From an uncultured Actinomycetota bacterium (GTDB lineage Bacteria; Actinomycetota; UBA4738; HRBIN12): a DNA stretch of 64,000 bases. The stretch's first letter is position 1, and every line of letters begins with the position of its first letter. The stretch spans positions 25,870-89,869 of the forward strand of contig CAWIUW010000013.1 in NCBI GenBank assembly GCA_963839395.1, in the 5' to 3' direction. The notes beneath the pieces were generated by a model. It had not been told where the DNA came from. It was given only the letters and a program-made list of their open reading frames with translations, and did no database searches. A program made the position numbers and the translations under genes. Shown piece after piece: positions 5,884 to 47,226 of this stretch.

Positions 5884-5892
5884 AGACCGCGG

Positions 5893-6282
5893 TCAGGTCG
5901 ACGGCCGCGCCGCGACGAAGTCGACCTCGATCCGCCAGTCGGCGTGCGCCAGCCCGGCGACGAACATCAGGGTGGACGCCGGGCGGTGACCGCCCAGGAA
6001 CTCGTCCCGGACGGCGCGGGCGGTCGACAGGTCGTCGCGATCGACGAGCAGCATCGTGAGCTGCACGATGTCCGAGATCTCCATCCCGGCGCCGGCGAGC
6101 ACTCGCTCGATGTTCCGCCACGTCAGCCGCGACTGCTCCTCGATGTCCTCGCCGATCCGGCCGTCGGTGTCCACGCCCGTCTGCCCGGAGCCGAAGACGA
6201 ACCGCATCGGGCTCTCGACCTCGATGCCGTGCGAATAGCTGCCGAACGGGCCGGCAACCCCTGCCGGGTTGAACGCGCGCAT
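5893..6282 (-). CDS. ridA: RidA/YjgF/TdcF family reactive-intermediate deaminase
   Basis: 129 aa, PFGSYSHGIEV...FGSGQTG...RPASTLMFVAGLAHADWRIEVDFVA. Canonical RidA pattern. Confidence 0.8.
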   Translation of the reverse strand: MRAFNPAGVAGPFGSYSHGIEVESPMRFVFGSGQTGVDTDGRIGEDIEEQSRLTWRNIERVLAGAGMEISDIVQLTMLLVDRDDLSTARAVRDEFLGGHRPASTLMFVAGLAHADWRIEVDFVAARPST

Positions 6283-6367
6283 CTGTCTCCGTTCTCCTCG
6301 TCGCGACCGGCACCATAGCGTTCCGCTCCGCCTCCCGCCGCGGGCGGTCCGGCCCTAGCATGCGGAC

Positions 6368-13811: not shown

Positions 13812-13862
13812 GGCGGCGAGGCTACCGAACGCGCGCCTCTCCGCGCCCGATGCGCTCGTCCC

Positions 13863-14772
13863 CTAACGGGCTCTGCGTGACGTGGCCTTCCGGGCGGCCG
13901 TCGTCTTGCGCTTCCGGGTGCTCGCGGCCTTCTTGCGTGCCGGGGCCGTCTTGCGCTTGCGCGACGCCGCGGCCTTCTTCCCTGCGGCGACACGCTTCGG
14001 CGACTTCCGCGTGGTGGCCTTGCGAGCGGTCGTGCGCTTGCGGGTCGGCGGCCTTCTTGCGTGCCGGGGCCGTCTTGCGCTTCCGCGACGCCGCGGCCTT
14101 CTTCCCGGCGGCGACACGCTTGGGCGACTTCCGCGTGGTGGCCTTGCGAGCGGTCGTGCGCTTGCGGGCGGTAGTCCGCTTGCGGGTCGCGGCCTTCTTC
14201 CGTGCCGGGGCGGTCTTGCGCTTGCGCGACGCCGCGGCCTTCTTTCCTGCGGCGACACGCTTGGGCGACTTCCGCGTGGTGGCCTTGCGAGCGGTCGTGC
14301 GCTTCCGGGTGGTCGCGGCCTTCTTCCGGGCGGGGGCCGTCTTGCGCTTGCGCGACGCCGCGGCTTTCTTGCCTGCAGCCACGCGCTTCGTCGACTTCCG
14401 CGTGGTCTTCCTCCGCGTGGCCGGCCTCGTCGATGCCGTCTTCCTTGCAGCCGTTCGCTTCCTCGTCGCCGCCTTCGTGCTCGCGGCGGTCGCGGCCTTG
14501 CGCGCGACGGTCGATCGGCGCGTCCGCGTGGTTGCGGGGTCGGTGGCAGCCCCGTCCAGGGGCCCGCCCAACGGCATGGCCGTGGTTTCGGTCCTGGGCG
14601 CAGGACGGTCCCACGCGGGGGTTGCGGGCTGCCAGGACGGTTCGGGGGCGCTCGGCGCATCGAGCGCGCCGTCTTCGGTCTTCTTCATCTGCTCCGGATC
14701 TTGCGTCGACTCCTCAGTGTCGTTCCACTGCGGTCGATCCTGGTCCCAGGTGCGCTCGTCGGATGACGGCAT
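13863..14772 (-). pseudogene. Lys/Arg/Ala/Thr-rich tandem-repeat protein (histone-H1-like basic tail, acidic N-terminus), about 303 aa. It has a frame change inside the first repeat unit.
   Basis: N-terminus MPSSDERTWDQDRPQWNDTEESTQDPEQ... in frame 13822..14772. The repeats RKATTRKSPKRVAAGKKAAASRKRKTAPARKKAAT(T)RKRTTA (42 and 47 aa) continue to ...KKAASTRKRKTTAARKATSRRAR* in frame 13863..14660. The DNA repeat units are 124, 141 and 126 bp, so unit 1 is 2 bp short. Confidence 0.55.
13927..14450. repeat. Tandem direct repeat with 124/141/126-bp units, decaying beyond. It encodes the basic KAAASRKRKTAPARKKA repeats.
   Basis: GCCTTCTTGCGTGCCGGGGCCGTCTTGCGCTTGCGCGACGCCGCGGCCTTCTTCCC... recurs starting at 13927, 14051, 14192 and 14318. 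Confidence 0.85.
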
Positions 14773-22398: not shown

Positions 22399-23418
22399 AT
22401 GGATCCCCGGCGCAGAGTGCAAGTCGTCCTGGGTGAAGCGGAGCGGACCGACGGACTCCTTCGTTTCATCTTGGAAGGCGAAGGGTTCGACATCATCGGG
22501 CTCGCTTCGGATGACCACGAGCTCGCGCGAGTCCTTCGCGGCGCTCGACCTGATGTGGTCGTCCTGGACGGCGGCATCTCCGCTGCCGCTGCCGTGGAGG
22601 CCCGCGAGCGCGCCGAGGGAGCCTCTCTCGTCGTGGTCTGGCCGGATGGAGTGGCGGCGGTCATCGCTGAGGAACGCGTCGACCCTTCTTCTTCCATCTC
22701 GGACCTGGGCGAGGCGGTCCGACGAGCTGCCGGATCCGCCAAGGTCAGCCACACGATCATCCGCGTCCCTGACGTGCGGGCCGCGCACGTGCAAGAGGAG
22801 AGTCAAGCCGAGATCCCATACCCAGACATCCGGCAGGACCCACCTGTGCCTTCACGATCTCGAGGGCGCCGTGGTCAGCTCCTCGTCGCGGCCGCCACTT
22901 GGATGCTCGCCCTCACAGCCCTCACGACGATCGCGATCGCCGTGCCGAACGCACTGAAGCTCTCTTCCCGCCAAGGCGAACGCCCTTCGTCCGGCGTGTC
23001 CGTGAACCGCCCCGACGAGCGGACCACTACGCCTCAACGGCCCACAGACACGGGCAGGCGGCCGGCCTGCGACGCTCCCGCCACGCCTCAGGGCCGGACG
23101 AGTAGCTCCCGCGGGGCGACCTCCGAACCGGTTCGCGCGCAGGGGTGTCCCCCGGATGGCGCCCAGGGTGATGCGGGCAACAAGGGCGATCGAGGAGGTC
23201 GTCCCGACGACCCAGGGAACCAGGCGAACGGACAGGATCCACCCGGTCCGGTGTCGGGCCACGCTCAGGGAGGAACCAACGGATCGCAGGAGACCGATAG
23301 CGAGGAACGGGAACACGCGAGCGGCGGGAAGGCCGGGACCGGCGGGAGCGCCGGCAAGGGGCAGGAACAGAGCTCCGTCGGAAACGCCACCCGGACCGAT
23401 ACCGGCACCGCTGGGTGA
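22399..23418 (+). CDS. Membrane protein with an N-terminal receiver (REC)-like domain, a single TM helix and a long Gly/Pro/Thr-rich low-complexity C-terminal region
   Basis: VQVVLGEAE...FDIIGLASDDHELARVLRGARPDVVVLDG...ASLVVVW follows the beta1-alpha1-beta2-alpha2-beta3 pattern of receivers, with D retained in VVVLD. TM helix LLVAAATWMLALTALTTIAIAV. The tail is rich in G, P, T, R and D. Confidence 0.6.
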   Translation: MDPRRRVQVVLGEAERTDGLLRFILEGEGFDIIGLASDDHELARVLRGARPDVVVLDGGISAAAAVEARERAEGASLVVVWPDGVAAVIAEERVDPSSSISDLGEAVRRAAGSAKVSHTIIRVPDVRAAHVQEESQAEIPYPDIRQDPPVPSRSRGRRGQLLVAAATWMLALTALTTIAIAVPNALKLSSRQGERPSSGVSVNRPDERTTTPQRPTDTGRRPACDAPATPQGRTSSSRGATSEPVRAQGCPPDGAQGDAGNKGDRGGRPDDPGNQANGQDPPGPVSGHAQGGTNGSQETDSEEREHASGGKAGTGGSAGKGQEQSSVGNATRTDTGTAG

Positions 23419-23694: not shown

Positions 23695-24025
23695 GGGCTT
23701 CGGTCCCCAACCCGAGCTCGTTCGGCCCTCCCTTCTTTCTCACGTTCGTCCTGTGTCCGGCTCCGCGCCGATAGCCGAAGGTCTCGACACCTCATCCCCC
23801 GTCGCGCCAGAACGTCCCCCGTGTGCCCGATGAAGTCATCGGCCGTCAGCCGACCAAGATTGCGACATTCGAGTGATAGCGCTGTCGCCCGCTGGGGGGC
23901 AAAGTGACCCTTCGTCCGGCCGACGCCGAGTGCCGGTCACCAGAGAGGACCAGGGATCGCCGTGATCGACGCCGGGAGCCAGGCCATCGAGGGGACCCAG
24001 ACAGCGCGGGAGGATCGCGATCGTC

Positions 24026-25636
24026 TTGGGTCTCGTCATGAGCGCCTTGCTCGCCCTCACGTTCCTCCCACCCTCACCGGTTCGGGCGGAGACGTTCGTC
24101 CCCGTCGTGGTACACGAGCGGAGGCCGACCACTGACTCCGCGGAAGCGTTGATCGAGGCTGTCGGCGGCAGCGTCACCAGGCCCCTCCCCTTGATCGGCG
24201 GGTTCGCCGCCGAAGTGCCGGACGATCGCCTGTCGCTGCTCGGCCCCGATGGTCCGATCGCGGGTCTGTACGTCGACGGTCCCATCCACATGGCTGCTGC
24301 GGGGACGACGGCGTATGACGACCTCGAGCCCAACCTCGCGTGGCGGAAGACGATCAGGCTCCCCCAGGTGCCGCTCGGCATCGACGGCAGCGGCGTGACG
24401 GTCGCGATGATCGACACCGGCGTCGCGCAGGTCGCGGACCTCGGTGATCGGGTCATCGCTCGGGTCGACTTCACACCCGGAGGCAACGGCGAGGACGCCT
24501 ATGGGCACGGGACGCACCTCGCGGGCGTGATCGCGGGAGACGGTACCGCCTCGGGTGGCAAGTGGCGGGGCGTCGCGCCGGGCGCGCAGCTCGTCTCCGT
24601 GAAGGTGGCAGGGCCCGATGGCGCGACCGACGTCTCCGTTGTGATCGCCGCGCTGCAATGGGTCGTCACCCACCGCGCGCAGTACGGGATCAAGGTGCTG
24701 AACCTCTCGTTCGGCACGGACAGCGTCCAACCGTACGCGGTCGACCCGTTGAACGCCGCGGTGGAGCGCGCGTGGGCGGCGGGCATCACCGTCGTGGTCT
24801 CGTCGGGGAACCGGGGACCGGGAACGATCAACAAGCCCGGCGACGACCCGTTCGTGATCACGGTGGGGGCGACCGACGGCAAGCAGACCGCCGACCGGAA
24901 GGACGACGAGGTCGCTCCCTTCTCGAGCAGCGGCATCACACAGGACGGCTTCGCGAAACCGGACCTCGTGGCACCAGGCACCACGATCGTGGCCACCCGT
25001 GACGCCGGAAGCACGATCGACGGGCTCCATCAGGACGCCGTCCTCGACGGCGACTACTTCAAGGGGACCGGCACATCCCAGGCGGGGGCGGTCGTCTCGG
25101 GCGTGGCCGCGCTCCTCTATCAGGCGAATCCGTCCCTCCGACCGAACACGGTCAAGAGCATCCTGTTGGGAAGCACCTTCCGAGCCTCGCAATACCGGAC
25201 GGGTGGCGGGGCGGGGCTCGTCGACGCGGCAGGCGCCGTGCAGAGCATCGGGAGCGGCGACTGGGCCAACGTCGGGTTGCTCCGGTCGCTCGGGGCGGGG
25301 TCACTCGAGGGCAGCCGAGGGCGGTTCCACGTGCACACCGATCTCAACCACGACGGCCAGCCCGATCTCGTCACGGGTGAGCAGGACGTCCTCGGCGCGC
25401 CGTGGGACTCGACCTCTTGGTCCTCGACCTCGTGGTCGTCGACGTCGTGGTCTTCCACGAGCTGGTCATCGCTGATCTCCGAGAACACGGGCTGGTCCAG
25501 CAACTCGTGGAGCTCGACGTCCTGGAGCGGCATGTTCTGGAGCTCGAACTCATGGAGCTCGAACTCATGGAGCTCGACGAGTTGGAGCTCGAACTCATGG
25601 AGCTCGACGAGCTGGAGCTCGGCGGCCTGGAGCTGA
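24026..25636 (+). CDS. Secreted subtilisin-like S8 serine protease with a C-terminal tandem (S/N)(T/S)SWSS hexapeptide-repeat tail (copy 1)
   Basis: Signal peptide MGLVMSALLALTFLPPSPVRA. Catalytic triad motifs VAMIDTGV (Asp), HGTHLAGVIAG (His), GTSQAGAVVSGVAAL (Ser). The last 77 aa are STSWSS repeats. Confidence 0.9.
   Translation: MGLVMSALLALTFLPPSPVRAETFVPVVVHERRPTTDSAEALIEAVGGSVTRPLPLIGGFAAEVPDDRLSLLGPDGPIAGLYVDGPIHMAAAGTTAYDDLEPNLAWRKTIRLPQVPLGIDGSGVTVAMIDTGVAQVADLGDRVIARVDFTPGGNGEDAYGHGTHLAGVIAGDGTASGGKWRGVAPGAQLVSVKVAGPDGATDVSVVIAALQWVVTHRAQYGIKVLNLSFGTDSVQPYAVDPLNAAVERAWAAGITVVVSSGNRGPGTINKPGDDPFVITVGATDGKQTADRKDDEVAPFSSSGITQDGFAKPDLVAPGTTIVATRDAGSTIDGLHQDAVLDGDYFKGTGTSQAGAVVSGVAALLYQANPSLRPNTVKSILLGSTFRASQYRTGGGAGLVDAAGAVQSIGSGDWANVGLLRSLGAGSLEGSRGRFHVHTDLNHDGQPDLVTGEQDVLGAPWDSTSWSSTSWSSTSWSSTSWSSLISENTGWSSNSWSSTSWSGMFWSSNSWSSNSWSSTSWSSNSWSSTSWSSAAWS
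25403..25633 (+). repeat. 18-bp tandem repeat array, about 12 units, encoding Trp-containing hexapeptides. It is interrupted by LISENTGW and SWSGMFWSS.
   Basis: tcgacctcgtggtcg-type units. The opposite strand reads ELELMELDE. Confidence 0.9.
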
Positions 25637-25647
25637 GGAGAGACGAC

Positions 25648-27846
25648 ATGAAGACACTTCCTCGATCGGTGAAGCTCCTGATCGCGGGAGCCACGCTCCT
25701 GGGCATCGGCTGCGTCGCGATCCGGGTCCCCGAGATCGCTCGCTGGGACGTGGAGGACGTCCTCGCCGTCATCGTCATCGCAGGACTCACGCTCGCCGCC
25801 GAGCGGTGCTCGATCCCACTTCGCCGCGGAACCGAAACCGTGAACTTCGCGCTCACGGACGGCGTGTGGGCCGGCGCGCTCCTTCTCGTCACACCGGGAG
25901 TGCTGACGGTGGCGGTGCTCGTGGGCGTGCTCGTCGGGCAGGCACTGAACCGCTGGAAGCCGTTCAAGATCGCCTACAACGTCTCGCAGTTCCTGATCGG
26001 CCTGACGCTCGCGGAGCTCACCCTCGCGTTCCTGAGCACGTGGGGCGCCGGTCCGACGGACCCTGCGCGCTGGGCCGCGGTCCTGATCGCGATGTTCGTC
26101 GCCTTCGCCGTCAACGCGAGCGCGATCATGCTCGTGGTGTCGATGGTCGAGGGCACTCGCTTCATCGACGTGTTCCGTCTCCCCCTCGCGTTGAACGTGA
26201 TGCACTGGCTCGGCAACGTGTTCCTCGGCATCCTCGGCGCATTGGTCTGGGCCGCCGAACCCGTTGCCCTGATCCTGATGATCGCGCCGGTCGCCCTCGC
26301 GTACGTCACCTACCGGCGTTGGGTGGAGGGCATCCGGGAACGCGATCAGATGCGCGACCTCTACGAGGCGGGAAGCACGCTCGTCGCCCCGCTGGCCGCG
26401 ACGCAGACCTTCGGCGACTTCCTCGGACTGCTCGAGAAGCTGCTCCCGGCCGATCGCGTGGAGCTCGTCGTCGTCGACGAGAACACCGTCGCGGTGCACA
26501 CCTCGACGGGGATCCGCCACCTCACGGTCGACGACGCGGGAGCGGATCCGCTCGACGCCTTCGTCGCGGTGCACAGCGGGATCGCTCCCCAGATCGCACT
26601 CGTCGGCGACGGGGAGGACGTCCGTGGGGTCCTCGCCGTGTACCGGAGTGAGGTCCTCACCGCGACGGAGCGTTCCCTCCTCGACGGGTTCGCGGCCCAG
26701 ATCGCAACCCGACTCCGGAACCACCGGATGTACGGGAAAACGCTCGAGCGCGCGCGGCTCTCCGAGATCGTCTCGCATACATCCGACGGCGTTTTCACGG
26801 TCGACCTCGAGGGACGGATCACGACGTGGAACCCGGCGATGCACACGCTGGTGGGCTACTCCGAGGACGACGCGATCGGCCGGCGGTGCGAGGAGCTCCT
26901 CGGCCTCGGGCTGCTCACGGTCCTCGCGGACGACGACGCAGGGAACGGCGCACTCGGCGGTACGACTGCCACGACGAAGGATGGGGCACTGAAGGAGCTT
27001 CGGCTCCGCACGAGCACGATCCGCGACGACGAGGGGGCGCCGCCCGCCCGGATCGTCGTGGTTCGCGACGTCGGCGAGGAGATGAAGGCGGAGCAGATCA
27101 AGCGCGACTTCGTGTCGATGGTCTCCCACGAGCTCCGCTCACCCCTGACGCCACTCCGCGGATTCCTCTCGAGCCTCGTCGAGGGCACCGTCGACGACGC
27201 TCCCGAGAAACGTCACGAGTACTACCGGATCATGCTGCGGCAGGCGCAGCGGTTGGAGCGAGTCGTGAACGACATGCTCGATGTCTCGCTGATCGAAGCC
27301 GGCGGGCTCGTGGTGGATCTCCAGCCGGTGTCGGTGGACCATGTGTTGAGCCGCGTGGTGAAGGAGTTCCGCGACCAGCACCCGGACCGCCCCGTCGTCC
27401 TCCGCGACCTCGATCGGACCGCGACCGTGTTCGCCGATCCCTTCCGCGTGGAGCAGGTGGTGCTGAACCTGCTGTCGAATGCCCACAAGTACACCCCCGC
27501 GGCGCTGCCCATCAGGGTGAGCACCATGACCTCGGAAGGGTCGGTCACCATCGCGGTGCGCGATCAAGGCGCAGGCATCGCGCCGGAGCATCGCGAGATG
27601 ATCTTCGACCGCTTCTACCGGGTGCAGGACGACCCGGCCTCGCGGCAACCTGGGACCGGCCTCGGCCTCTACATCGCGCGAACGCTCGTCGAGGCGATGT
27701 CCGGGCAGATCTGGGTGGACTCCGAGCTCGGCGCCGGCACGACCTTCTTGTTCAGCCTGCAGACCATCGACGTGGACCACCTCGCGGAGATCACGCTGGA
27801 CGAGCTCCCGCGGTCGGCCGAGGTGGCTCTCGTCCCCATGCCGTAG
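25648..27846 (+). CDS. Orphan sensor histidine kinase with a 7TM N-terminal domain, GAF-like, PAS, HisKA and HATPase_c (copy 1). It lies 12 bp downstream of the protease.
   Basis: ATG 25648 with GAGGAGAG SD. TM block MKTLPRSVKLLIAGATLLGIGCV...RCSIPLRRG... H-box VSHELRSPLTPLRGF. N/G1/G2 boxes LLSNAHKYT, GTGLGLYIARTLVEAMSGQIWVDSELGAGTTF. Confidence 0.85.
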   Translation: MKTLPRSVKLLIAGATLLGIGCVAIRVPEIARWDVEDVLAVIVIAGLTLAAERCSIPLRRGTETVNFALTDGVWAGALLLVTPGVLTVAVLVGVLVGQALNRWKPFKIAYNVSQFLIGLTLAELTLAFLSTWGAGPTDPARWAAVLIAMFVAFAVNASAIMLVVSMVEGTRFIDVFRLPLALNVMHWLGNVFLGILGALVWAAEPVALILMIAPVALAYVTYRRWVEGIRERDQMRDLYEAGSTLVAPLAATQTFGDFLGLLEKLLPADRVELVVVDENTVAVHTSTGIRHLTVDDAGADPLDAFVAVHSGIAPQIALVGDGEDVRGVLAVYRSEVLTATERSLLDGFAAQIATRLRNHRMYGKTLERARLSEIVSHTSDGVFTVDLEGRITTWNPAMHTLVGYSEDDAIGRRCEELLGLGLLTVLADDDAGNGALGGTTATTKDGALKELRLRTSTIRDDEGAPPARIVVVRDVGEEMKAEQIKRDFVSMVSHELRSPLTPLRGFLSSLVEGTVDDAPEKRHEYYRIMLRQAQRLERVVNDMLDVSLIEAGGLVVDLQPVSVDHVLSRVVKEFRDQHPDRPVVLRDLDRTATVFADPFRVEQVVLNLLSNAHKYTPAALPIRVSTMTSEGSVTIAVRDQGAGIAPEHREMIFDRFYRVQDDPASRQPGTGLGLYIARTLVEAMSGQIWVDSELGAGTTFLFSLQTIDVDHLAEITLDELPRSAEVALVPMP

Positions 27847-27849: not shown

Positions 27850-28917
27850 CTAGGGAGCGGTCGGGACCGGAGCCGGGCGGAACGCAGCGAGGACGATCCG
27901 GAAGGTCGTTCCACGTCCCTCCTCACTCTCCACCGTGATGGAACCGCCGTGGGCCTCCACGATCGCCTTCGTGATCGACAGGCCGAGCCCGGTGCCGCCG
28001 TTGCTCCTCGCGCGATCGGTCTCGACGCGGGTGAAGCGGTCGAAGATCCGCGGGAGGTCCTCGGCGCGGATGCCTCGCCCCTGGTCCGTCACATCGATCA
28101 CGAGGCGCCCGTCGTCCGACCGACACTCGACACGGATCGTGTCCCCGTCGTCCGTCGCTTCGACCGCGTTCTCCAGTACCGCGTCGAGGGCGGTCTCCAG
28201 ACGCGCGCGATCGGCGCGGATCGTTCCGCGCGCCGTGATCTCCACCTTCCAATCGCGCGCGGCCGTCGGCTCCCACCGGCGCACCCATCCCTCGACGAAC
28301 GACTCCACCTGCACCGGACCCGTCGTCAGGAAGCCCGGATGTCCCGCCGTCGTCAGGACGAGCAGCCGTTCCGACAGGCTCGAAAGATGTCCGAGCTCGT
28401 CGAGGATCACCTCGGCGTCCTTCGAGACCTGTCCGTTGAGCCCCGAGTCGCGGATCAGCTCCGCGTGACCGCGCGCCACGGTGATCGGTGTCCGGAGCTC
28501 GTGCGATGCGTCGCGCACGAACTCGCGCTGCCCCATCAGGAGAAGGTGTTCCGATTCGGCCAGCCGCCCGGCCTCCTCGGTTGCGGTGCGCCGCCGTTCC
28601 GCGTGCCACACCATCGCGACGAACATCGCCGCCATCAGCGGGACCTCCGCGAGCTCATCGGGGCTCTCGTGGCCGCGCGCGATCGACCATGTGAGGGCGG
28701 CGCCGGTGACGGCCATCACGACGACCAACAGGACCATCGTCGTGCGGAGGCGCCACAGCCGGATCCCGTAGACGAGCGTGAGACTGACCCAGATGAAATG
28801 GAACGGGATCGTCTCCCAGTGGCTCAGCAACGCGATGACCACCAGGTTGGCCGCGGCGAACACGCCCCACGCGAGCTCGACCCAGCGCCTACGGAGCGTT
28901 GAACCGATATCCGACAT
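27850..28917 (-). CDS. Sensor histidine kinase (2 TM, HAMP-less, HisKA + HATPase_c), partner of the adjacent OmpR-type regulator
   Basis: ASHELRTPITVARGHAELI (H-box). GTGLGLSITKAIVEAHGGSITVESEEGRGTTF. Overlaps the regulator gene by 29 nt. Confidence 0.85.
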   Translation of the reverse strand: MSDIGSTLRRRWVELAWGVFAAANLVVIALLSHWETIPFHFIWVSLTLVYGIRLWRLRTTMVLLVVVMAVTGAALTWSIARGHESPDELAEVPLMAAMFVAMVWHAERRRTATEEAGRLAESEHLLLMGQREFVRDASHELRTPITVARGHAELIRDSGLNGQVSKDAEVILDELGHLSSLSERLLVLTTAGHPGFLTTGPVQVESFVEGWVRRWEPTAARDWKVEITARGTIRADRARLETALDAVLENAVEATDDGDTIRVECRSDDGRLVIDVTDQGRGIRAEDLPRIFDRFTRVETDRARSNGGTGLGLSITKAIVEAHGGSITVESEEGRGTTFRIVLAAFRPAPVPTAP

Positions 28918-29554
28918 TCCGCACCGTCTCGATCACGTCGCCGCCGAGCTTGGCTCGGAGGCGTCCCACGCAGACATCCACCACGTTGCTTCCCGGATCG
29001 AAGGAGTAGCCCCAGACGTCGGCGAGCAGTCGCTGGCGACTACGCACCTCCCCCTCCTGTCGCATCAGATGCTCGAGCAGGAGGAACTCCCGTTCGCTCA
29101 GGGTCACGTGTCGCCCGTTCACCTCGGCGATGCGCCGGGTGAGATCGAGGGTCAGGCCGCCTCCCCGGAGCAACTGATGACGGGGTCCGGTGCCGGGCTG
29201 CCGCACGCGCGCCCGCACGCGGGCGAGGAGCTCGGCGAGCGAGAAGGGCTTGGAGAGGTAGTCGGAGGCGCCGAACTCCAGGCACCGGACCTTCGTCTCG
29301 ACGTCGGAGAGCGCCGACAGCACCAATACGCGCTGTTCGGGTCTGCTCTCCATCAGGCCCTGGAGGACGGACATCCCGTCGAGGCGAGGCAGGAGCAGGT
29401 CGAGCACCACCAGCTCGTAGCTGCCCGTGCTCGCGAGCTCGAGTGCGCGGATCCCGTCCTGGGCACCGTCGACCTGGAACCCCTCCGCCGCGAGCGCTCG
29501 GGACACGAAGCTGACGATCCTCGGCTCGTCGTCGACCACCAGCACCCTGGTCAC
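28889..29554 (-). CDS. OmpR/PhoB-family response regulator (REC + winged-helix)
   Basis: VLVVDDEPRIVSF...YELVVLDLLLPRLDG...LVLSALSD...VGYRF. Confidence 0.9.
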   Translation of the reverse strand: MTRVLVVDDEPRIVSFVSRALAAEGFQVDGAQDGIRALELASTGSYELVVLDLLLPRLDGMSVLQGLMESRPEQRVLVLSALSDVETKVRCLEFGASDYLSKPFSLAELLARVRARVRQPGTGPRHQLLRGGGLTLDLTRRIAEVNGRHVTLSEREFLLLEHLMRQEGEVRSRQRLLADVWGYSFDPGSNVVDVCVGRLRAKLGGDVIETVRNVGYRFNAP

Positions 29555-29569
29555 GGAGCGGATGCTAGG

Positions 29570-29668
29570 CCTGACATGGCCGGCGCGATAGTCCTATGAC
29601 GGAACCGTCATCAGACGCGTTCGGCCACGTGACCGTGAGGTGACGGTTCCCTGACGACCCTGACATGG
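29570..29668. promoter_or_regulatory. Divergent promoter region with repeated motifs, candidate response-regulator operators
   Basis: Direct repeat CCTGACATGG at 29570-79 and 29659-68. Palindrome TGACGGAACCGTCA at 29597-29610. TGACGGTTCC at 29641-50. Confidence 0.4.
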
Positions 29669-42184: not shown

Positions 42185-42249
42185 GGGCGGAGTCTAGGGT
42201 CGCCTCGGTCCCGGGTCGAGCCAAGGGGAGTTCGGCCGGCCGCGCAGGT

Positions 42250-43023
42250 TCAGGAGTGGATCGAGCGTGTCCTGCGGCAGGTCGGGTACCGAGAGCATCC
42301 GAGGAACCGCGCTCCGTCGGTCGTGCGGGTCCGAGGGATCATGTGTCCCCCGCAGCCGCATCGTTCCGACGGGAGCGTGTCAACCCACGTGTTGGCATCC
42401 GCCGCGGCCGCGGCGAGCACGATGACGTCACTCGAACGGAGGATCGGCGGCTGCCCCAGCATCCAATGCTTCACCGCACGTGGGCCACCCACGAAGACGT
42501 CAACCGGCCGTTCCTCTACGGTCCATTCGTCGGCAAGGATCGCGAGCAGTCCCCGCACCTCCACCGATCTGCCGATCGCCCTGGACAGCAACCTCGCGGT
42601 CCGGACTGCTTCCTCGGACGCCTTCGGCAGGAAGTCCGTCCGTTGGCCGTGGTGAGTGACCGAGCCCGAGGTCACGACGATCTCGCCTGAGAGGTATCTG
42701 GTGTTGATCGTGAAGACCCCGCTCGGCCCGATCACGAGATGGTCGATGTGGGCGCCTCGCGCGCCGACCGGGACGTCGTGGAACGCGAACCAGCCGTCGG
42801 GCAGGCGCCCCAGCCACCAGCCGGTGATGCGTTCGCCGCTCGCTTCCCTGCGCCACGCGCGCTTGTCGGTGTGGATCCCCAAGAGCCGTGCGAAGCGGCT
42901 CCCAACGGGCTGGGCAGCCCTGAGCTCATGAGGCTGTTCGGTGACCGACGTGCCGGGTCGGCGCCCAACCGGCGTCTCGCCCGGCCCGACGCTCGGCATC
43001 CGTTCGTTGGGATCGACAGCCAT
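42250..43023 (-). CDS. NERD (nuclease-related) domain protein fused to a topoisomerase-type C4 zinc ribbon
   Basis: NERD core ...GWFAFHDVPVGARGAHIDHLVIGPSGVFTINTRY.... C-terminal CGCGGHMIPRTRTTDGARFLGCSRYPTC. Confidence 0.65.
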   Translation of the reverse strand: MAVDPNERMPSVGPGETPVGRRPGTSVTEQPHELRAAQPVGSRFARLLGIHTDKRAWRREASGERITGWWLGRLPDGWFAFHDVPVGARGAHIDHLVIGPSGVFTINTRYLSGEIVVTSGSVTHHGQRTDFLPKASEEAVRTARLLSRAIGRSVEVRGLLAILADEWTVEERPVDVFVGGPRAVKHWMLGQPPILRSSDVIVLAAAAADANTWVDTLPSERCGCGGHMIPRTRTTDGARFLGCSRYPTCRRTRSIHS

Positions 43024-43160: not shown

Positions 43161-45011
43161 ATGCCCCACATCTGCTGTGGGACTGCCGACACCGGCACAT
43201 TCCCTCCTCCGCGCGATACCGCTCAACCGGTTCGGCCCTCAAAGTTGGCCCTTCGTCCAGGGCCGGCACCGGTCGGTCGCGACAGGGAGGGGACACCGCT
43301 GCTCGAGATCTCGGTCAGGAGGTCGGCGGTCGATGCTGCCCCGAGGAGCTTCATCGCCGTCGCGAGCCTCATCCTCTGCGCGGTGATCGCCGCCACCCTC
43401 GTCCAAGCGCCCTCGACCGACTCCCGGCCCGACATATCGGTTCTGATCCACGAAGCGGATCCGGCTTCGCGCCTCGCAGAGGATCTCGTCCACGCTATAG
43501 GCGGCAACGTCACTCGACCGCTCCCCCTGATAGGCGGGTTCGCTGCGTCCGTGCCGGACGATCGCCTCTCGATGCTGGCCGCCGACGACGCGATCATCGA
43601 GCTCTCCGTCGACGGCCGCATCCAGATGGCCTCGTCCGGCACGGACGCATACGACGCACTCGACCCCAACCTCGCCTGGCGGAAGGCGATCCGCCTGGGC
43701 CAGCTGCCGGCCGGGATCGATGGCAGCGGCGTAACCGTCGCGATGATCGATACCGGCGTGGCACACCATGAGGATCTCGGCGACCGGGTGGTCGCGCGGG
43801 TCGACTTCACGCCGGGCGGAGCCGGGGACGACCAGTTCGGACACGGCACCCATCTCGCGGGCGTGATCGCCGGCGACGGGACAGCCTCTTCGGGCAAATG
43901 GCGTGGGGTCGCCCCCGCGGCACAGCTCGTTTCCGTGAAGGTCGCCGGCGCGGATGGCTCCACCGACGTGTCCGTCGTGATCGCGGCACTCCAATGGGTT
44001 GTTTCACACCGGGATCAGTTCCACATCCGCGTGCTGAACCTCTCGTTCGGAACCGACTCGATCCAGCCGTACGCGCTCGACCCACTCGACGCGGCCGTCG
44101 AGCGCGCATGGGCCGCCGGCATCACGGTGATCGTCTCGGCCGGGAACCGCGGCCCCGGGCTCGGGACGATCGCCAAGCCGGGCGACGATCCCTACGTCAT
44201 CACGGTCGGCGCAGCGGATCTGAACCAAACCCCAGAGCGGTGGGACGACGAGGTGGCTCCGTTCTCGAGCCGAGGTCCCACCCAAGACGGCTTCGAGAAA
44301 CCGGACCTCGTCGCACCCGGGACGACGATCGTCGCCACGCGCGACGTAGGCAGCGCGGTCGACCAACTCCACCCCGAGGCCATCATGGACGACCGATACT
44401 TCAAGGGCACGGGGACCTCGCAGAGCGGCGCGATCGCATCGGGCGTGGCCGCGCTGATGTACGAGGCCAACCCGCACCTGTCGCCGAATCGCGTGAAGGG
44501 GATCCTCACCGGCACGGCCTTCAAGACGGCGGCCTACCGCGTCGGGGGCGGCGACGGCCTCATCGACGCCACCGGTGCCGTGCTTGCAGCCACGAGCGAT
44601 GTCGCCAACCCGAACGCCGGGTTGATCAGATCGACCGGGCTGGGGACGCTCGAAGGCAGCCGAGGTCGCTTCCACGTGGAAACCGATCTCGATGGGGACG
44701 GGCAGCCGGACCTGGTCGAGGGCGAGACGGATGTCCTCGGCGACCCGTGGGACTCGAACTCGTGGTCCTCGACCTCGTGGTCGTCGAACTCCTGGAGCTC
44801 CACCTCATGGTCGTCCTTGATCGGGGAGAACGACGGCTGGTCGAGCACATCGTGGAGCTCGACATCGTGGAGCGGGATGAGCTGGAGTTCGACCTCATGG
44901 AGTTCGAACAGCTGGAGCTCCACCTCGTGGAGCTCCACCAGTTGGAGTTCGACCTCATGGAGTTCGACCAGTTGGAGCTCGAACAGTTGGAGCTCGGTCG
45001 CCTGGAGCTGA
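43161..45011 (+). CDS. Secreted subtilisin-like S8 serine protease with a C-terminal (S/N)(T/S)SWSS repeat tail (copy 2). Its 5' end is uncertain, with a probable frameshift near 43335.
   Basis: About 80% identical in protein to copy 1, with the same triad motifs. ATG 43333 has a perfect AGGAGG SD 9 nt upstream, but it is +1 to the main frame. Adding one nt after MLPR gives the signal peptide MLPRRSFIAVASLILCAVIAATLVQA. Confidence 0.8.
   Translation: MPHICCGTADTGTFPPPRDTAQPVRPSKLALRPGPAPVGRDREGTPLLEISVRRSAVDAAPRSFIAVASLILCAVIAATLVQAPSTDSRPDISVLIHEADPASRLAEDLVHAIGGNVTRPLPLIGGFAASVPDDRLSMLAADDAIIELSVDGRIQMASSGTDAYDALDPNLAWRKAIRLGQLPAGIDGSGVTVAMIDTGVAHHEDLGDRVVARVDFTPGGAGDDQFGHGTHLAGVIAGDGTASSGKWRGVAPAAQLVSVKVAGADGSTDVSVVIAALQWVVSHRDQFHIRVLNLSFGTDSIQPYALDPLDAAVERAWAAGITVIVSAGNRGPGLGTIAKPGDDPYVITVGAADLNQTPERWDDEVAPFSSRGPTQDGFEKPDLVAPGTTIVATRDVGSAVDQLHPEAIMDDRYFKGTGTSQSGAIASGVAALMYEANPHLSPNRVKGILTGTAFKTAAYRVGGGDGLIDATGAVLAATSDVANPNAGLIRSTGLGTLEGSRGRFHVETDLDGDGQPDLVEGETDVLGDPWDSNSWSSTSWSSNSWSSTSWSSLIGENDGWSSTSWSSTSWSGMSWSSTSWSSNSWSSTSWSSTSWSSTSWSSTSWSSNSWSSVAWS
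44748..45008 (+). repeat. 18-bp tandem repeat array, about 14 units, encoding the SWSS hexapeptide tail of protease copy 2
   Basis: Same unit and same internal interruptions (LIGENDGW, SWSGMSWSS) as copy 1. Confidence 0.9.
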
Positions 45012-45024
45012 ATGGGTAGATGAC

Positions 45025-47226
45025 ATGACCACACTTCCCCGCTCCGTGAAGCTCCTGATCGCGACCGCCACCCTGCTCGGCGTCGCCTGCGTGGCGATCC
45101 GCGTCCCCGAGATCGCCCGCTGGCAGCTCGAAGACGCGCTCGCCGTCATCGTGATCGCCACGCTCACGATCGTCGCCGAGCGATGCTCGATCCCCTTGCG
45201 CCGCGGCTCCGAGACGGTCAACTTCGCGCTCACCGACGGCGTATGGGCCGGAGCCCTGCTTCTCGTCTCGCCGTCGATCCTGACGGTTGCGGTCCTCCTC
45301 GGCGTGGGGGTCGGTCAGGCACTGAACCGATGGAAGGTCTACAAGATCACCTACAACGTCTCCCAGTTCCTGATCGGGATCACGCTCGCGGAGATCGCGT
45401 TCTCGATCCTCGGTGCATGGGGACAGGGGCCGACCGATCCGGTGCTGTGGGCTGCGGTGCTCGCCGCGATGTACATCACGTTCGCCGTGAACACCACCGC
45501 GATCATGCTCGTGGTGTCGATGGTGGAGGGCACGCGGTTCCTCGATCTGTTCCGGCTTCCCCTGTCGATGAACGTGGTGCATTGGGTCGGGAACATGGCG
45601 CTCGGCATCCTCGGCGCGATCTTGTGGACCGCCGAGCCCGTCGCGCTGGTCTTGATGATCGCCCCGGTGGGGCTCACGTTCACGACGTACCGCCGGTGGA
45701 TCCAGAGCATCCGCGAACGAGACCAGATGCGTGATCTGTACGAAGCGGGCCGCGCCCTGTCCGGTCCGCTCGCCTCCACCGAGGACTTCGGCGGGTTCCT
45801 AAGCCTGCTCGAGAAGCTCCTGGCGGCCGACCGCGTGGAGCTCGTGGTCGTGGAAGGGAGCAGCGTCGCGGTCCACGCCTCTGCGGGCGTGCGCTACCTC
45901 ACGGTGGACGAGGCGGAGACCGCTCCCCTCGAGGCGTTCGTCGCCGTGCACTCGGGCGTCGCGCCACAGATCGCGCTCGTGGGCGACGAGGGCGACGTGC
46001 GGGGCGTGCTCGCCGTCTATCGGCCGCAGGTGCTCACCGCGCCCGAGCGTCTCCTCCTCGATGGGCTCGCGAACCAGATCGCGGCCCGGCTCCAGGACCA
46101 CCGGCTGTTCGGCAAGACGCTGGAGCGCGCGCGCCTGTCGGAGATCGTGTCGCACACATCCGATGGCGTGTTCACGGTCGACACCCTCGGGCGGATCGCC
46201 ACCTGGAACCCGGCGATGCAGGCCCTCACGGGGTACACCGAGGTCGAGGCACTTGGACGGCCGTGCCACGACCTCCTTGGGCTCGCTCGGGACACGGTCT
46301 TCTCCGACGGTGCCGCCGGAGACGGCGAGGCGAGAGACACGGAGATCCGGACGTGCGACGGGACGAAGAAGGACGTGCGCCTGCGGACGAGCGTGATCCG
46401 CGACGACGAGGAGGCGCCGCCCGCGCGGATCGTCGTCGTTCGCGACGCGAGCGAGGAGACCCGCGCCGAGCAGATCAAGCGCGACTTCGTCTCGATGGTG
46501 TCGCACGAGCTGCGGACGCCATTGACGCCGCTGAAAGGGTTCTTGATGAGTCTCGTCGAAGGCACGGTCGAGGACTCTCCCGAGCGGCGAGAGGAGTACT
46601 ACCGGATCATGCTCCGCCAGGCGCAGCGCCTGGAACGGACCGTGAGCGACATGCTCGACGTGTCGACGATCGAGGCCGGCGGTCTGGTCATCGATCTCCA
46701 ACCGGTGCCTCTGGACCACGTGCTGGGACGCCTGGTGAAAGAGTTCCAGGAGCAGCACCCCGGGCGTCGCGTCGCCGTTGGCGAGATCGGGCGGCCGGCG
46801 ATCGTCCTCGCCGACCCGTTCCGGGTGGAGCAGGTCGTGTTGAACCTGCTCTCGAACGCGGACAAGTACACGGCTCCGGGGCTACCGATCACGGTCGGCG
46901 CCATCACGAACGGCCGCCACGTCACGATCTCCGTTTGGGACAAGGGAGAGGGCATCGCGCCGGAGCACATCGATCGGATCTTCGACCGCTTCTACCGGGT
47001 GAAGGACGAGTCCGGCTCGCGGCAGCCGGGGACGGGGCTCGGCCTCTACATCGTTCGAACGCTGGTCGAGGCGATGTCGGGGAGCATCTGGGTCGAGTCC
47101 GAGGTCGGCGTCGGCACGACGTTCTCGTTCAGCCTCCCGATCATCGAAGTCGCCCAGCTCGGAGAGGCGATCGGGGTCGATCTCGCCGCCCCAGAGTTGG
47201 TCGAGCCGCGACTGGTCAGGCGCTGA
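45025..47226 (+). CDS. Orphan 7TM-GAF-PAS histidine kinase (copy 2), 13 bp downstream of protease copy 2
   Basis: MTTLPRSVKLLIATATLLGVACVAIRVPEIARW... About 80% identical in protein to the 25648..27846 kinase across its whole length. Confidence 0.85.
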   Translation: MTTLPRSVKLLIATATLLGVACVAIRVPEIARWQLEDALAVIVIATLTIVAERCSIPLRRGSETVNFALTDGVWAGALLLVSPSILTVAVLLGVGVGQALNRWKVYKITYNVSQFLIGITLAEIAFSILGAWGQGPTDPVLWAAVLAAMYITFAVNTTAIMLVVSMVEGTRFLDLFRLPLSMNVVHWVGNMALGILGAILWTAEPVALVLMIAPVGLTFTTYRRWIQSIRERDQMRDLYEAGRALSGPLASTEDFGGFLSLLEKLLAADRVELVVVEGSSVAVHASAGVRYLTVDEAETAPLEAFVAVHSGVAPQIALVGDEGDVRGVLAVYRPQVLTAPERLLLDGLANQIAARLQDHRLFGKTLERARLSEIVSHTSDGVFTVDTLGRIATWNPAMQALTGYTEVEALGRPCHDLLGLARDTVFSDGAAGDGEARDTEIRTCDGTKKDVRLRTSVIRDDEEAPPARIVVVRDASEETRAEQIKRDFVSMVSHELRTPLTPLKGFLMSLVEGTVEDSPERREEYYRIMLRQAQRLERTVSDMLDVSTIEAGGLVIDLQPVPLDHVLGRLVKEFQEQHPGRRVAVGEIGRPAIVLADPFRVEQVVLNLLSNADKYTAPGLPITVGAITNGRHVTISVWDKGEGIAPEHIDRIFDRFYRVKDESGSRQPGTGLGLYIVRTLVEAMSGSIWVESEVGVGTTFSFSLPIIEVAQLGEAIGVDLAAPELVEPRLVRR

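What the first reader, a model, noticed from the sequence alone, without database searches (positions are those of the whole stretch)
25403..25633. S8 proteases ending in tandem Trp-containing hexapeptide repeats, (S/N)(T/S)SWSS x 12-14
Both subtilisin paralogs end in an uninterrupted array of hexapeptides with Trp at every sixth position, flanked by Ser/Thr. There is no following TM helix or known sorting motif. Copy 1 is at 25403-25633 and copy 2 at 44748-45008. The arrays are encoded by near-perfect 18-bp DNA repeats, yet the interruptions LIS/GEN-T/DGW and SWSGM-F/S-WSS are conserved between copies. That implies selection on the tail rather than simple slippage. I do not recognise this as a described cell-wall-binding, sorting or propeptide module. 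It could be a new wall-anchoring or glycosylated S/T-rich Trp-ladder module. It could also be a tethered ligand or substrate related to the co-encoded kinase.
Basis: seen in the sequence. Interest (0 to 1): 0.75.

Follow-up and report, generated by a model that had tools for sequence, protein, structure and literature searches.

The report
Tryptophan-every-fifth-residue tail on secreted proteases
Two secreted subtilisin-type proteases end in a conserved, undescribed tail with a tryptophan at every fifth residue; the tail marks a large protease family of uncultured soil Actinomycetota, and in this branch the protease gene is always followed by a gene for a novel membrane sensor.

Summary
It is a pentapeptide, x-x-x-W-x, typically S-[T/N]-S-W-S, encoded by 15-bp units that match only 71-77%. 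It is not a hexapeptide on near-perfect 18-bp repeats.

Copy 1 has 15 in-phase pentads and copy 2 has 17. Units encoding the same peptide share about 72% of their bases. dN/dS in the tail (about 0.1-0.2) equals that of the catalytic domain, so selection acts on the peptide.

All 120 close homologues, 30 genome loci and 118 members of a sister clade carry such a tail. The close homologues share one layout: 3-4 units, then a fixed core (SLI[SA]EN-x-GW, two units, G[MT]xW), then 3-8 units.

Nothing matched the tail in Pfam, NCBIfam, PDB sequences or the paper library. Two AlphaFold runs gave no fold (pLDDT 20-35). Among bacterial proteins the tail is almost exclusive to S8 proteases.

In this clade (30/30 loci, 2/2 in the window) the next gene encodes an unannotated polytopic sensor domain, fused to a histidine kinase or to GGDEF-EAL. 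In the sister clade only 2 of 6 do.

Function is unproven. The best guess is a disordered, multivalent Trp "sticker" tail for surface retention or self-association, like the NANOG tryptophan repeat.

The parts
24026..25636 (+). S8 protease, copy 1 (536 aa from TTG 24026). It has a signal-peptide-like N-terminus, an I9-like propeptide and a catalytic domain, then the junction module and the W-pentad tail.
   Evidence: ORF. Pfam Peptidase_S8 E 1.3e-45. D130/H164/S351/N262 are invariant in 87 aligned homologues. The closest solved chains are 9UES_B and 3AFG_A, both deposited as 'Subtilisin-like serine protease' (E about 2e-51).
25298..25402 (+). Junction module GSLEGSRG...DLNHDGQPDLV...GEQDVLGA. 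It precedes the pentads in this clade and in the sister clade.
   Evidence: G1, R7, G8, G27, D30 and G33 are invariant in the 54-sequence alignment A3. It gives a weak FG-GAP-like match over the DxNxDG loop, below the Pfam cutoff. AlphaFold pLDDT is 61-69 here, against 25-34 in the tail.
25403..25633 (+). W-pentad tail, copy 1: 15 in-phase pentads x-x-x-W-x, 77 aa, ending ...SSAAWS and then the stop codon.
25466..25540 (+). Fixed core of the tail, copy 1: SSLIS-ENTGW-SSNSW-SSTSW-SGMFW. It includes one pentad without Trp and one G-M-aromatic-W pentad.
   Evidence: Unit table. The same core is found in 119 of 120 homologues and is recognisable in distant loci as xLTxVxPGW / YVFExxGW ... SG[TM]xW.
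25648..27846 (+). Sensor histidine kinase 1 (732 aa). It has a polytopic N-terminal sensor domain (about residues 1-230, 7-8 hydrophobic segments), a GAF-like region, PAS, HisKA and HATPase_c. Its ATG lies 11 nt after the protease stop, and a GGAG sits 7 nt upstream of the ATG.
   Evidence: Pfam, hydropathy scan, sequence. The sensor domain has no Pfam or NCBIfam family.
43161..45011 (+). S8 protease, copy 2. The ORF runs from ATG 43161, but the true start is probably later, near the position where homologue P0092 starts. Its catalytic body is 76% identical to copy 1.
44748..45008 (+). W-pentad tail, copy 2: 17 in-phase pentads, 87 aa, ending ...SSVAWS and then the stop codon. It is 86% identical to tail 1.
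44811..44885 (+). Fixed core of the tail, copy 2: SSLIG-ENDGW-SSTSW-SSTSW-SGMSW.
45025..47226 (+). Sensor histidine kinase 2 (733 aa). It has the same architecture as kinase 1 and is 73% identical to it. Its ATG lies 13 nt after the protease stop.

Best explanation
The tail is a translated, selectively maintained C-terminal module. It is the hallmark of a large clade of secreted, catalytically intact AprX-like S8 proteases in uncultured Actinomycetota. It consists of 13-18 in-phase pentads here, and up to 37 elsewhere. In each pentad only the Trp is fixed, and the spacers are small uncharged residues (Ser, Thr, Asn, Gly, Ala).

Most likely mechanism (inferred): the tail is an intrinsically disordered, multivalent 'Trp sticker / polar spacer' segment. 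By aromatic stacking it makes the exported protease self-associate and/or stick to the cell envelope, so the enzyme stays at the surface instead of diffusing away. The number of Trp units would set the strength of binding, as in the NANOG tryptophan repeat.

In the window's clade the protease is co-transcribed with, and works together with, a polytopic membrane sensor that signals through a histidine kinase or through c-di-GMP enzymes. The tail would hold the enzyme next to that sensor.

Shown: existence, period, protein-level selection, family-wide conservation, near-exclusive association with S8 proteases, and gene order with the sensor.
Inferred: disorder, stickiness, surface retention, and cooperation with the sensor.
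For: - Period 5 with exact register over 77-87 residues.
- Synonymous scrambling of the units, and tail dN/dS of 0.1-0.2, equal to the catalytic domain.
- A tail is present in 120/120 close homologues, in all complete genome loci and in 118/118 members of a sister clade.
- Copy number varies only in the end blocks, which fits a valency-type module.
- The composition is 51% Ser, 19% Trp, 16% Thr+Asn and no Lys/Arg. This is the grammar of the NANOG WR domain: 10 pentapeptides with W at a fixed position, hydroxyl/amide-rich and uncharged. There, dimerisation scales with the number of Trp and proceeds by aromatic stacking into a prion-like assembly (PMC5446312, PMC9106587).
- AlphaFold2 gives pLDDT 20-35 for the tail, both in the full-length protein with 87 sequences and alone with 54 diverse sequences, while the neighbouring parts score higher.
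- No Pentapeptide or other domain HMM matches, even at E<=10.
- The triad D/H/S and the oxyanion Asn are invariant, so these are working enzymes.
- The sensor gene lies immediately downstream on the same strand in 30/30 loci and 2/2 in the window, with output swapped to GGDEF-EAL in L027, L028 and L033.
Against: - A purely disordered sticker tail should not need position-specific features. Yet the core SLI[SA]EN-x-GW, two units, G[MT]xW is fixed in 119/120 homologues and recognisable down to about 50% protease identity. Sister clades keep an analogous special pentad with an aromatic residue before W (D-x-[YF]-W). This hints at a defined structure or a specific partner.
- A generic adhesion module should occur on other exo-enzymes. 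Among the bacterial hits that could be assigned a domain, nearly all are S8 proteases: 70 of the 150 best hits carry the S8 catalytic domain by phmmer, and 2 more by Pfam.
- Failure of AlphaFold on a novel repeat does not prove disorder.
- Nothing was tested experimentally.
Confidence: 0.33

Rival explanations
1. The tail is a folded repeat domain, such as a beta-solenoid related in geometry to pentapeptide-repeat (Rfr) proteins. It would have 4 pentads per coil and Trp residues stacked in ladders, forming an aromatic surface that binds a polysaccharide (peptidoglycan, wall glycopolymer, chitin or cellulose). This would anchor or target the protease.
For: - Position-specific conserved units occur within the array.
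- In this clade the Trp-less pentad and the G-M-aromatic-W pentad are exactly 4 pentads (20 residues) apart, which is one Rfr coil.
- Sister-clade units T-S-W-S-G mimic the A-N-L-S-G consensus of pentapeptide repeats (consensus from established knowledge; units). JGI labelled one member (P0370) as a pentapeptide-repeat protein.
- Trp with Ser/Thr/Asn/Asp is typical of sugar-binding surfaces (established knowledge).
Against: - No Pfam Pentapeptide match at E<=10 for six tails of several types.
- Two AlphaFold2 runs give no solenoid and pLDDT 20-35.
- The position two residues before Trp, which faces inward in Rfr proteins, tolerates Arg, Lys and Gln in relatives (GRSWS, GKTWG, GQSWS).
- In the sister clade the spacing of the special units is not a fixed multiple of 4.
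- The module is not found on other secreted enzymes.
Confidence: 0.2
2. The tail is a C-terminal pro-sequence or built-in substrate of the protease itself. The regularly spaced Trp-small-residue sites would be cut by the S8 domain, in cis or in trans. The tail would then be trimmed stepwise or removed during maturation, timing activation or release of the enzyme. Autocatalytically removed C-terminal pro-sequences are known in other subtilases, for example aqualysin I (from my own knowledge, not checked here).
For: - The tail is almost exclusive to S8 proteases.
- In another S8 subfamily (P0152, P0236) the same kind of W-pentad array lies between the N-terminal region and the catalytic domain. 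From the sequence that N-terminal region looks like an I9 propeptide, in which case the array would lie where autoprocessing takes place. Pfam did not call I9 there.
- All 120 close homologues end exactly one residue after the last Trp, that is, at a unit boundary.
- Subtilisins generally prefer large hydrophobic or aromatic P1 residues (established knowledge).
Against: - No cleavage evidence is available.
- A disposable pro-sequence would not be expected to evolve as slowly as the catalytic domain, nor to keep a fixed internal core.
- By my own hand alignment with subtilisin BPN' (untested), the residue at the bottom of the S1 pocket (Gly166 in BPN') appears to be Asn in 'TINKPGDDP'. That may disfavour Trp at P1.
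Confidence: 0.2
3. The tail is a tandem array of pentapeptide signals (such as SSTSW or STSWS), or a tethered ligand, released or presented by the protease and sensed by the co-transcribed polytopic sensor. This would be a protease-borne pheromone or envelope signal. It would work like Phr pentapeptides cut by subtilisin-type proteases, like Agr/Com peptides sensed by polytopic kinases, or like yeast alpha-factor repeats cut by the S8 protease Kex2 (all from my own knowledge, not checked here).
For: - Protease-sensor gene order is invariant in this clade (30/30 loci plus the window). It is kept while the output domain is swapped between kinase and GGDEF-EAL.
- The same sensor domain is adjacent in 2 of 6 sister-clade members.
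- The sensor is membrane-embedded with very short loops, like peptide-sensing kinases.
- Unit sequences are homogenised within a protein but differ between lineages.
Against: - Four of six sister-clade tail-bearing proteases have no such sensor nearby.
- The two paralogous systems in this one genome have nearly the same tail (86% identical, same unit types), while the catalytic bodies are 76% and the kinases 73% identical. This is the opposite of what private signalling channels predict.
- The tail has a fixed non-repeat core.
- In the partial Mantel test, tail divergence tracks the cytoplasmic juxtamembrane segment as well as the membrane domain (0.43 against 0.39), so there is no specific co-evolution signal.
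Confidence: 0.1
4. The tail is unstable low-complexity sequence made by replication slippage, without function.
For: The number of units differs among close relatives in steps of 5 residues (13-18 pentads).
Against: - Units are only 71-77% alike at the DNA level, with Ser codons of both families.
- dN/dS is 0.1-0.2.
- The tail is kept in every homologue down to 43% protease identity.
- The fixed core and the fixed terminal unit are conserved.
Confidence: 0.01

Closest known systems
NANOG tryptophan repeat (WR) domain (vertebrate transcription factor)
   Same: - It consists of tandem pentapeptides with Trp at the same position in each unit (10 units).
- The spacers are rich in hydroxyl and amide residues and carry no charge.
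- It lies in a low-complexity region.
- Its function, homodimerisation and prion-like assembly, scales with the number of Trp and works by aromatic stacking (PMC5446312, PMC9106587).
   Different: - It is eukaryotic, nuclear and internal to the protein, and is not attached to an enzyme.
- No homology is implied. No hit in the profile search was identified as NANOG, though only some hits were examined.
- The bacterial tail is extracytoplasmic and longer, has a fixed non-repeat core, and ends the protein.
- Self-association of the bacterial tail is untested.
Pentapeptide-repeat proteins (Pfam Pentapeptide families; Rfr right-handed quadrilateral beta-helix)
   Same: - Both have a strict 5-residue period over many tandem units.
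- The central residue is hydrophobic and flanked by small polar residues.
- Sister-clade units TSWSG resemble the ANLSG consensus.
   Different: - The centre is Trp rather than Leu or Phe.
- There is no HMM match.
- AlphaFold predicts no beta-helix.
- Bulky charged residues are tolerated at the position that should face inward.
Non-covalent wall-binding repeat modules of Gram-positive surface enzymes (choline-binding repeats, GW modules, WxL, LysM, SLH)
   Same: These are C-terminal, repetitive, aromatic-containing modules on secreted hydrolases. Their copy number varies and tunes avidity (established knowledge).
   Different: - Those modules are 20-80-residue folded units found on many enzyme types.
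- This is a 5-residue unit with no domain match, found almost only on S8 proteases.
- Binding to the wall is untested.
Extracytoplasmic protease genes coupled to two-component systems (MprAB-PepD in Mycobacterium, CssRS-HtrA/HtrB in Bacillus)
   Same: A secreted or membrane-associated serine protease gene lies next to, and functionally tied to, an envelope sensor kinase (established knowledge, not checked here).
   Different: - Those proteases are HtrA-type (S1C), not S8.
- Their sensors have ordinary periplasmic loops.
- They have no Trp-repeat tail.
- Here the sensor domain is an unannotated polytopic domain that also occurs with GGDEF-EAL output.
Peptide-pheromone systems with polytopic receptors (Agr, ComQXPA, Phr/subtilisin processing, yeast alpha-factor/Kex2)
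   Same: - A subtilisin-family protease is involved.
- The candidate signals are short Trp-containing peptides.
- Repeats are tandem, as in the alpha-factor precursor.
- A membrane-embedded multi-pass receptor is encoded next door.
   Different: - The repeats are fused to the protease rather than carried on a small precursor.
- The paralogous systems share the same tail.
- Many tail-bearing proteases have no sensor.
- There is no evidence that peptides are released.

Membership tests
Peptidase S8 (subtilase), Pfam PF00082 | HMM match above the gathering score | tested here: met
   156.3 and 166.4 bits against a cutoff of 21.8.
Peptidase S8 (subtilase), Pfam PF00082 | Asp-His-Ser triad and oxyanion Asn present | tested here: met
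   D130, H164, S351 and N262 are invariant in 87 aligned sequences.
Type VII secretion mycosin (NCBIfam TIGR03921) | Score above the curated cutoff | tested here: not met
   126 bits against a cutoff of 278.75.
Type VII secretion mycosin (NCBIfam TIGR03921) | C-terminal transmembrane anchor | tested here: not met
   The protein ends ...AWS one residue after the last Trp, and no hydrophobic segment follows. That mycosins have such an anchor is from my own knowledge.
Pentapeptide-repeat family (Pfam Pentapeptide families) | Tandem 5-residue period | tested here: met
   TRF period of 15 bp and exact register of 15 and 17 Trp.
Pentapeptide-repeat family (Pfam Pentapeptide families) | Sequence match to the A(D/N)LXX profile | tested here: not met
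   No Pentapeptide hit at E<=1 for the window tails, nor at E<=10 for six other tail types.
Pentapeptide-repeat family (Pfam Pentapeptide families) | Right-handed quadrilateral beta-helix fold | tested here: inconclusive
   AlphaFold2 predicts no regular structure, with pLDDT 20-35. A failed prediction does not exclude the fold.
NANOG-type tryptophan repeat (functional class, not a homologous family) | At least 10 tandem pentapeptides with Trp at a fixed position | tested here: met
   15 and 17 pentads. Definition taken from PMC5446312.
NANOG-type tryptophan repeat (functional class, not a homologous family) | Uncharged spacers rich in hydroxyl and amide residues | tested here: met
   Ser+Thr+Asn make up 67-68%, there is no Lys or Arg, and Asp and Glu are about 1-2% each.
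NANOG-type tryptophan repeat (functional class, not a homologous family) | Trp-dependent self-association | not testable with these tools
   This needs analytical ultracentrifugation or pull-down assays of the tail peptide and Trp-to-Ala variants.
Known Gram-positive sorting or wall-binding modules (LPXTG, choline-binding, GW/SH3b, WxL, LysM, SLH) | Domain or motif match, or a C-terminal TM helix with a charged tail | tested here: not met
   Pfam and NCBIfam return only Peptidase_S8 (plus a sub-threshold FG-GAP-like loop) for the full proteins, and nothing for the tails.
Peptide-pheromone / polytopic sensor kinase system (Agr- or Com-like) | Polytopic sensor kinase encoded next to the peptide source | tested here: met
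   The sensor gene is immediately downstream in 30/30 loci and 2/2 in the window, with 7-8 hydrophobic segments in residues 1-230.
Peptide-pheromone / polytopic sensor kinase system (Agr- or Com-like) | Small dedicated precursor peptide | tested here: not met
   The repeats form the C-terminus of a 536-616-residue enzyme.
Peptide-pheromone / polytopic sensor kinase system (Agr- or Com-like) | Signal and receptor diversify together (pherotypes) | tested here: inconclusive
   - Partial Mantel, tail against membrane domain given the catalytic domain: 0.39 (p 0.002). The cytoplasmic control segment gives 0.43.
- The paralogues in one genome share the same tail.
Peptide-pheromone / polytopic sensor kinase system (Agr- or Com-like) | Peptide source always accompanied by its receptor | tested here: not met
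   Four of six sister-clade tail-bearing proteases lack the sensor within 5-6 kb.

The most novel reading that the evidence does not exclude
The Trp-pentad tail and the unannotated polytopic sensor domain are the two halves of a new actinobacterial extracytoplasmic signalling device. The protease carries a tandem array of pentapeptide ligands, or a tethered multivalent ligand. Proteolytic trimming or exposure of this array is read by the co-transcribed membrane sensor, which outputs through a histidine kinase or c-di-GMP enzymes.
Probability: 0.12. Interest if true: 0.9.

Novelty: new variant of a known kind. Interest (0 to 1): 0.62.

Why it matters
The tail is a protein module that no library recognised, although it is common. 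Two family searches found 2,926 relatives of this protease (E<=1e-20) and 7,890 relatives of a sister-clade member (E<=1e-30). All 238 that were listed and inspected carry the tail.

Naming and modelling it would improve annotation of a whole class of secreted proteases in soil Actinomycetota, which are known only from metagenomes.

The tail is a bacterial, extracellular counterpart of the NANOG tryptophan repeat. It offers a natural series (8 to 37 units, many spacer chemistries) for studying how periodic aromatic residues drive association.

The invariant pairing of the protease with an unannotated polytopic sensor domain, whose output is swapped between a histidine kinase and GGDEF-EAL, defines a testable new protease-sensor module. 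That module may control envelope or nutrient signalling.

Tried and rejected
- Word-indexed homology search with the tail alone returned only two fragments, presumably because low-complexity words are not indexed. The full-scan profile search was used instead.
- Pfam and NCBIfam scans of the tails gave nothing, even at E<=10 for six tail types.
- A profile search of PDB sequences gave nothing at E<=10.
- Paper searches for six tail strings gave 0 papers, and for tryptophan-rich/subtilisin/pentapeptide gave nothing relevant.
- AlphaFold2 gave no confident structure for the tail, either on the full-length protein (87 sequences) or on the junction plus tail (54 diverse sequences). No fold search was run, because a low-confidence model gives meaningless matches.
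- Partial Mantel test for tail-sensor co-evolution: the correlation was positive but equally strong for a cytoplasmic control segment, so it is uninformative.
- Cluster look-up to learn the organisms of other tail-bearing proteases returned no names.
- Alternative reading frame: the E-L-x-L frame across the tail also has high third-position GC, and in copy 1 it is open into the kinase gene (814-aa ORF). I rejected it for two reasons. In copy 2 the corresponding ORF ends at a stop codon at 45019, before the kinase ATG, and is out of frame with the kinase. And both kinases start at a conserved M-[KT]-T-L-P-R-S-V-K just after the protease stop.
- Non-protease hits of the tail profile were set aside. 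Those that Pfam could place have eukaryotic-type domains (adhesion GPCR, animal haem peroxidase). Short fragments made of VVWCG or EVKWS repeats were judged unrelated repeats.
Full report
**Observation**

The ORF at 24026..25636 (536 aa) and the ORF at 43161..45011 match Pfam Peptidase_S8 at E 1e-45 and 1e-48. Each runs without interruption into a Ser/Trp-rich tail at exactly the stated coordinates. A six-frame scan of the window for Trp at fixed spacing finds only 25403-25630 (15 Trp) and 44748-45005 (17 Trp).

- Tandem Repeats Finder gives a period of 15 bp with 71-77% matches, apart from one short 3-copy stretch at 90%.
- The unit table shows pentads x-x-x-W-x, mostly S-[T/N]-S-W-S.
- So the repeat is a pentapeptide, not a hexapeptide. 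The DNA unit is 15 bp, not 18 bp, and it is far from perfect.
- The Trp-less stretch SSLIS-ENTGW is 10 residues long, so the register is never broken.

The tail is 51% Ser, 19% Trp, 10% Thr and 6% Asn, with no Lys or Arg. The other 458 residues of copy 1 contain 5 Trp. Chance is not an issue.

**Is it translated and selected?**

- Units that encode the same peptide share on average only 72% of their bases. Only 3 of 21 such pairs in copy 1, and 1 of 39 in copy 2, are identical in DNA. Ser is written with both the TCN and AGY codon families.
- Between the window and its orthologues, and between the two paralogues, the tail has dS 0.4-1.0 and dN 0.06-0.18. The catalytic body shows the same ratio.
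- The alternative E-L-x-L frame also has high third-position GC and is open into the kinase gene in copy 1. In copy 2 the corresponding ORF ends at a stop codon before the kinase start and is out of frame with the kinase.
- The tail is therefore a protein feature under purifying selection, not fresh slippage.

**Distribution**

A full-length search found 2,926 relatives at E<=1e-20. All 120 listed (70-95% identical, Actinomycetota metagenome bins, called 'AprX' by JGI) carry the tail and end one residue after the last Trp.

Of these, 119 parse as:
- G-x-x-W-x,
- then 3-4 units,
- then a fixed core (S-L-I-[SA]-E, N-x-G-W-S, two units, G-[MT]-x-W-[SN]),
- then 3-8 units,
- ending S-[VT]-[AT]-W-S.

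The total is 13-18 pentads. Copy number varies, but only in the end blocks.

In species-representative genomes, 34 loci encode relatives, all from uncultured Actinomycetota. There the unit changes by lineage: SATSW, SAVSW, GRSWS, GNEWS, GKTWG, ANSWD, NVGWD. The Trp period, a Trp-less hydrophobic-acidic break and the S-G-[TM]-x-W unit persist down to about 50% protease identity.

A profile of the two window tails, scored against 1.84 billion representative proteins, gave only 183 hits at E<=1e-3. Among the best 150:
- 70 contain a catalytic domain homologous to the window's.
- Two more, P0152 and P0236, are S8 proteases of another subfamily. Their W-pentads lie N-terminal of the catalytic domain, after what looks from the sequence like the I9 propeptide.
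- The rest are short fragments with the same junction motifs, unrelated repeats such as VVWCG, or proteins with eukaryotic-type domains (adhesion GPCR, haem peroxidase).
- Only about three prokaryote-like proteins lack an S8 domain: P0129, P0230 and P0240.

A second family search, from the sister-clade member P0159, found 7,890 relatives at E<=1e-30. All 118 newly listed ones have 13-31 W-pentads (GTSWS, GASWS, GQSWS and others). These follow the same junction, G-S-L-E-x-[SA]-R-G ... G-E-x-D-[IV]-[FL]-G.

The tail is thus the hallmark of a very large, unannotated clade of secreted S8 proteases.

**Is it a known module?**

- Pfam and NCBIfam report only Peptidase_S8 and a sub-threshold FG-GAP-like Ca-loop in the junction.
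- Six other tail types gave no Pentapeptide or other repeat family, even at E<=10.
- The mycosin model scores 126 against a cutoff of 279.
- No PDB chain matches the tail. The catalytic domain is closest to the subtilisin-like serine protease chains 9UES_B and 3AFG_A.
- No paper in the library contains such sequences.
- AlphaFold2 gave pLDDT 20-35 for the tail twice: in the full-length protein with 87 sequences, and for junction plus tail with 54 diverse sequences. In the second run the junction scored 61-69.

**Surroundings**

Eleven and 13 nt after the two protease stops start two 73%-identical genes. Copy 1 has a GGAG 7 nt upstream of the ATG. Each encodes a protein with:
- about 7-8 hydrophobic segments and very short loops in residues 1-230,
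- then a GAF-like region, PAS, HisKA and HATPase_c.

The polytopic part has no Pfam or NCBIfam family.

An HMM of this part finds it immediately downstream, on the same strand, in all 30 genome loci that have a complete tail-bearing protease and downstream DNA. It is also found in both window copies and in L041.

In L027, L028 and L033 the same domain is fused to GAF/PAS-GGDEF-EAL instead of a kinase (BLASTP E 1e-9 for L027 and 8e-8 for L033; HMM hits for all three). Keeping the gene pair while the output domain is swapped is strong evidence that the protease and this sensor domain work together.

In the sister clade the picture is mixed:
- L040 has the sensor 3 nt downstream of the protease (E 2e-15).
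- L038 has it just upstream.
- L035, L036, L037 and L039 have no sensor within 5-6 kb.

So the tail does not need the sensor.

**Mechanism**

What is shown: a secreted, catalytically intact enzyme (triad and oxyanion Asn invariant) carries an uncharged, Trp-periodic, selectively maintained tail. The tail is almost exclusive to S8 proteases. In this clade the enzyme is co-transcribed with a membrane sensor.

What I infer as most likely (confidence about 0.33): the tail is a disordered multivalent sticker array that keeps the enzyme at the cell surface. It would do so by Trp stacking with itself, with envelope material, or with the sensor.

The closest described thing with this sequence grammar is the NANOG tryptophan repeat. 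It has 10 pentapeptides with Trp at a fixed position and hydroxyl/amide-rich, uncharged spacers. Its dimerisation strength scales with the number of Trp, and it forms a prion-like assembly (PMC5446312, PMC9106587). This is a resemblance in how it may work, not in ancestry.

The main weakness of this reading is the fixed internal core, together with analogous special pentads (D-x-[YF]-W) in sister clades. Both suggest a defined structure or a specific partner.

Rival explanations:
- Folded Trp-ladder solenoid that binds a glycan (0.2).
- C-terminal pro-sequence or cis-substrate array (0.2). This is favoured by the exclusivity to S8 and by the arrays placed N-terminal of the catalytic domain in P0152 and P0236.
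- Protease-borne tandem ligand for the sensor (0.1). This is favoured by the gene order. It is weakened by tail-bearing proteases without a sensor, by the near-identical tails of the two paralogous systems in one genome, and by a co-evolution test that was no stronger for the membrane domain than for a cytoplasmic control.
- Simple slippage is refuted.

**Verdict**

The claim of selection is confirmed, and so is the claim that the module is undescribed, within the libraries searched. Function remains open.

I rate it a new variant of a known kind: a repeat extension on a secreted hydrolase, with NANOG-like Trp-repeat grammar. It has a minority chance of being part of a new protease-sensor signalling device.

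Noticed in passing
window 23962-24030: Close homologues of protease copy 1 (for example P0003, 95% identical) start at a GTG that corresponds to 23962 and encode a basic n-region (..PKRRR..) before the hydrophobic signal segment. In the window this GTG is out of frame with the main ORF, apparently through a 2-nt difference in a run of C near 23995. The ORF can then only start at TTG 24026 and lacks the charged n-region. This is either a real frameshift or an assembly error.
   Followed up: partly
window 25381-25647 and L001 5703-9761: Across the tail, a second frame (E-L-x-L repeats) also has high third-position GC. In copy 1 it is open into the kinase gene, giving an 814-aa ORF that overlaps the tail. 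This is likely to mislead gene callers into giving the kinase a false N-terminal extension.
   Followed up: partly
window 22399-23418 (+): The ORF upstream of protease copy 1 looks like a degenerate receiver domain (..DVVVLDGG..), followed by a hydrophobic segment and a long Gly/Pro/Arg-rich region. It has no Pfam or NCBIfam family. Homologues lie upstream of the protease in L001 (80% identity) and L006 (44%), but not upstream of copy 2.
   Followed up: partly
window 13822-14772 (-), repeats at 13903-14406: There are large tandem DNA repeats (periods 124, 141 and 265 bp; 90-94% matches). They lie within a minus-strand ORF that encodes Lys/Arg/Ala/Thr-rich repeats (..RKRTTARKATTRKSPKRVAAGKKAAASRKRKTAPARKKAA..), reminiscent of histone-like basic tails of actinobacterial DNA-binding proteins.
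   Followed up: no
window 27850-29593 (-): A separate, convergently oriented two-component pair lies directly after kinase 1: a HisKA/HATPase kinase and an OmpR-type response regulator. No response regulator is encoded next to either protease-linked kinase.
   Followed up: no
L014 3990-5786, L024 about 4079-5671, L030 about 4850-6558: In three related loci a second S8 protease gene lies in tandem, directly upstream of the sensor-linked one. Those of L014 and L030 were seen to carry a W-pentad tail. L024's upstream copy was detected only as an S8 match, and its tail was not confirmed.
   Followed up: partly
P0152 residues 118-198; P0236 residues about 100-170: A different S8 subfamily carries W-pentad arrays (ATQWD, STGWS) N-terminal of the catalytic domain, after what looks like the propeptide, instead of at the C-terminus.
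   Followed up: partly
window 40604-43023 (-): Upstream of protease copy 2 lie two genes on the opposite strand: an adenylate/guanylate cyclase-domain protein with a weak, sub-threshold DUF6923 match, and a NERD-domain protein with a sub-threshold topoisomerase-type zinc-ribbon match. The duplication that gave the two protease-kinase pairs therefore covers only those two genes.
   Followed up: no
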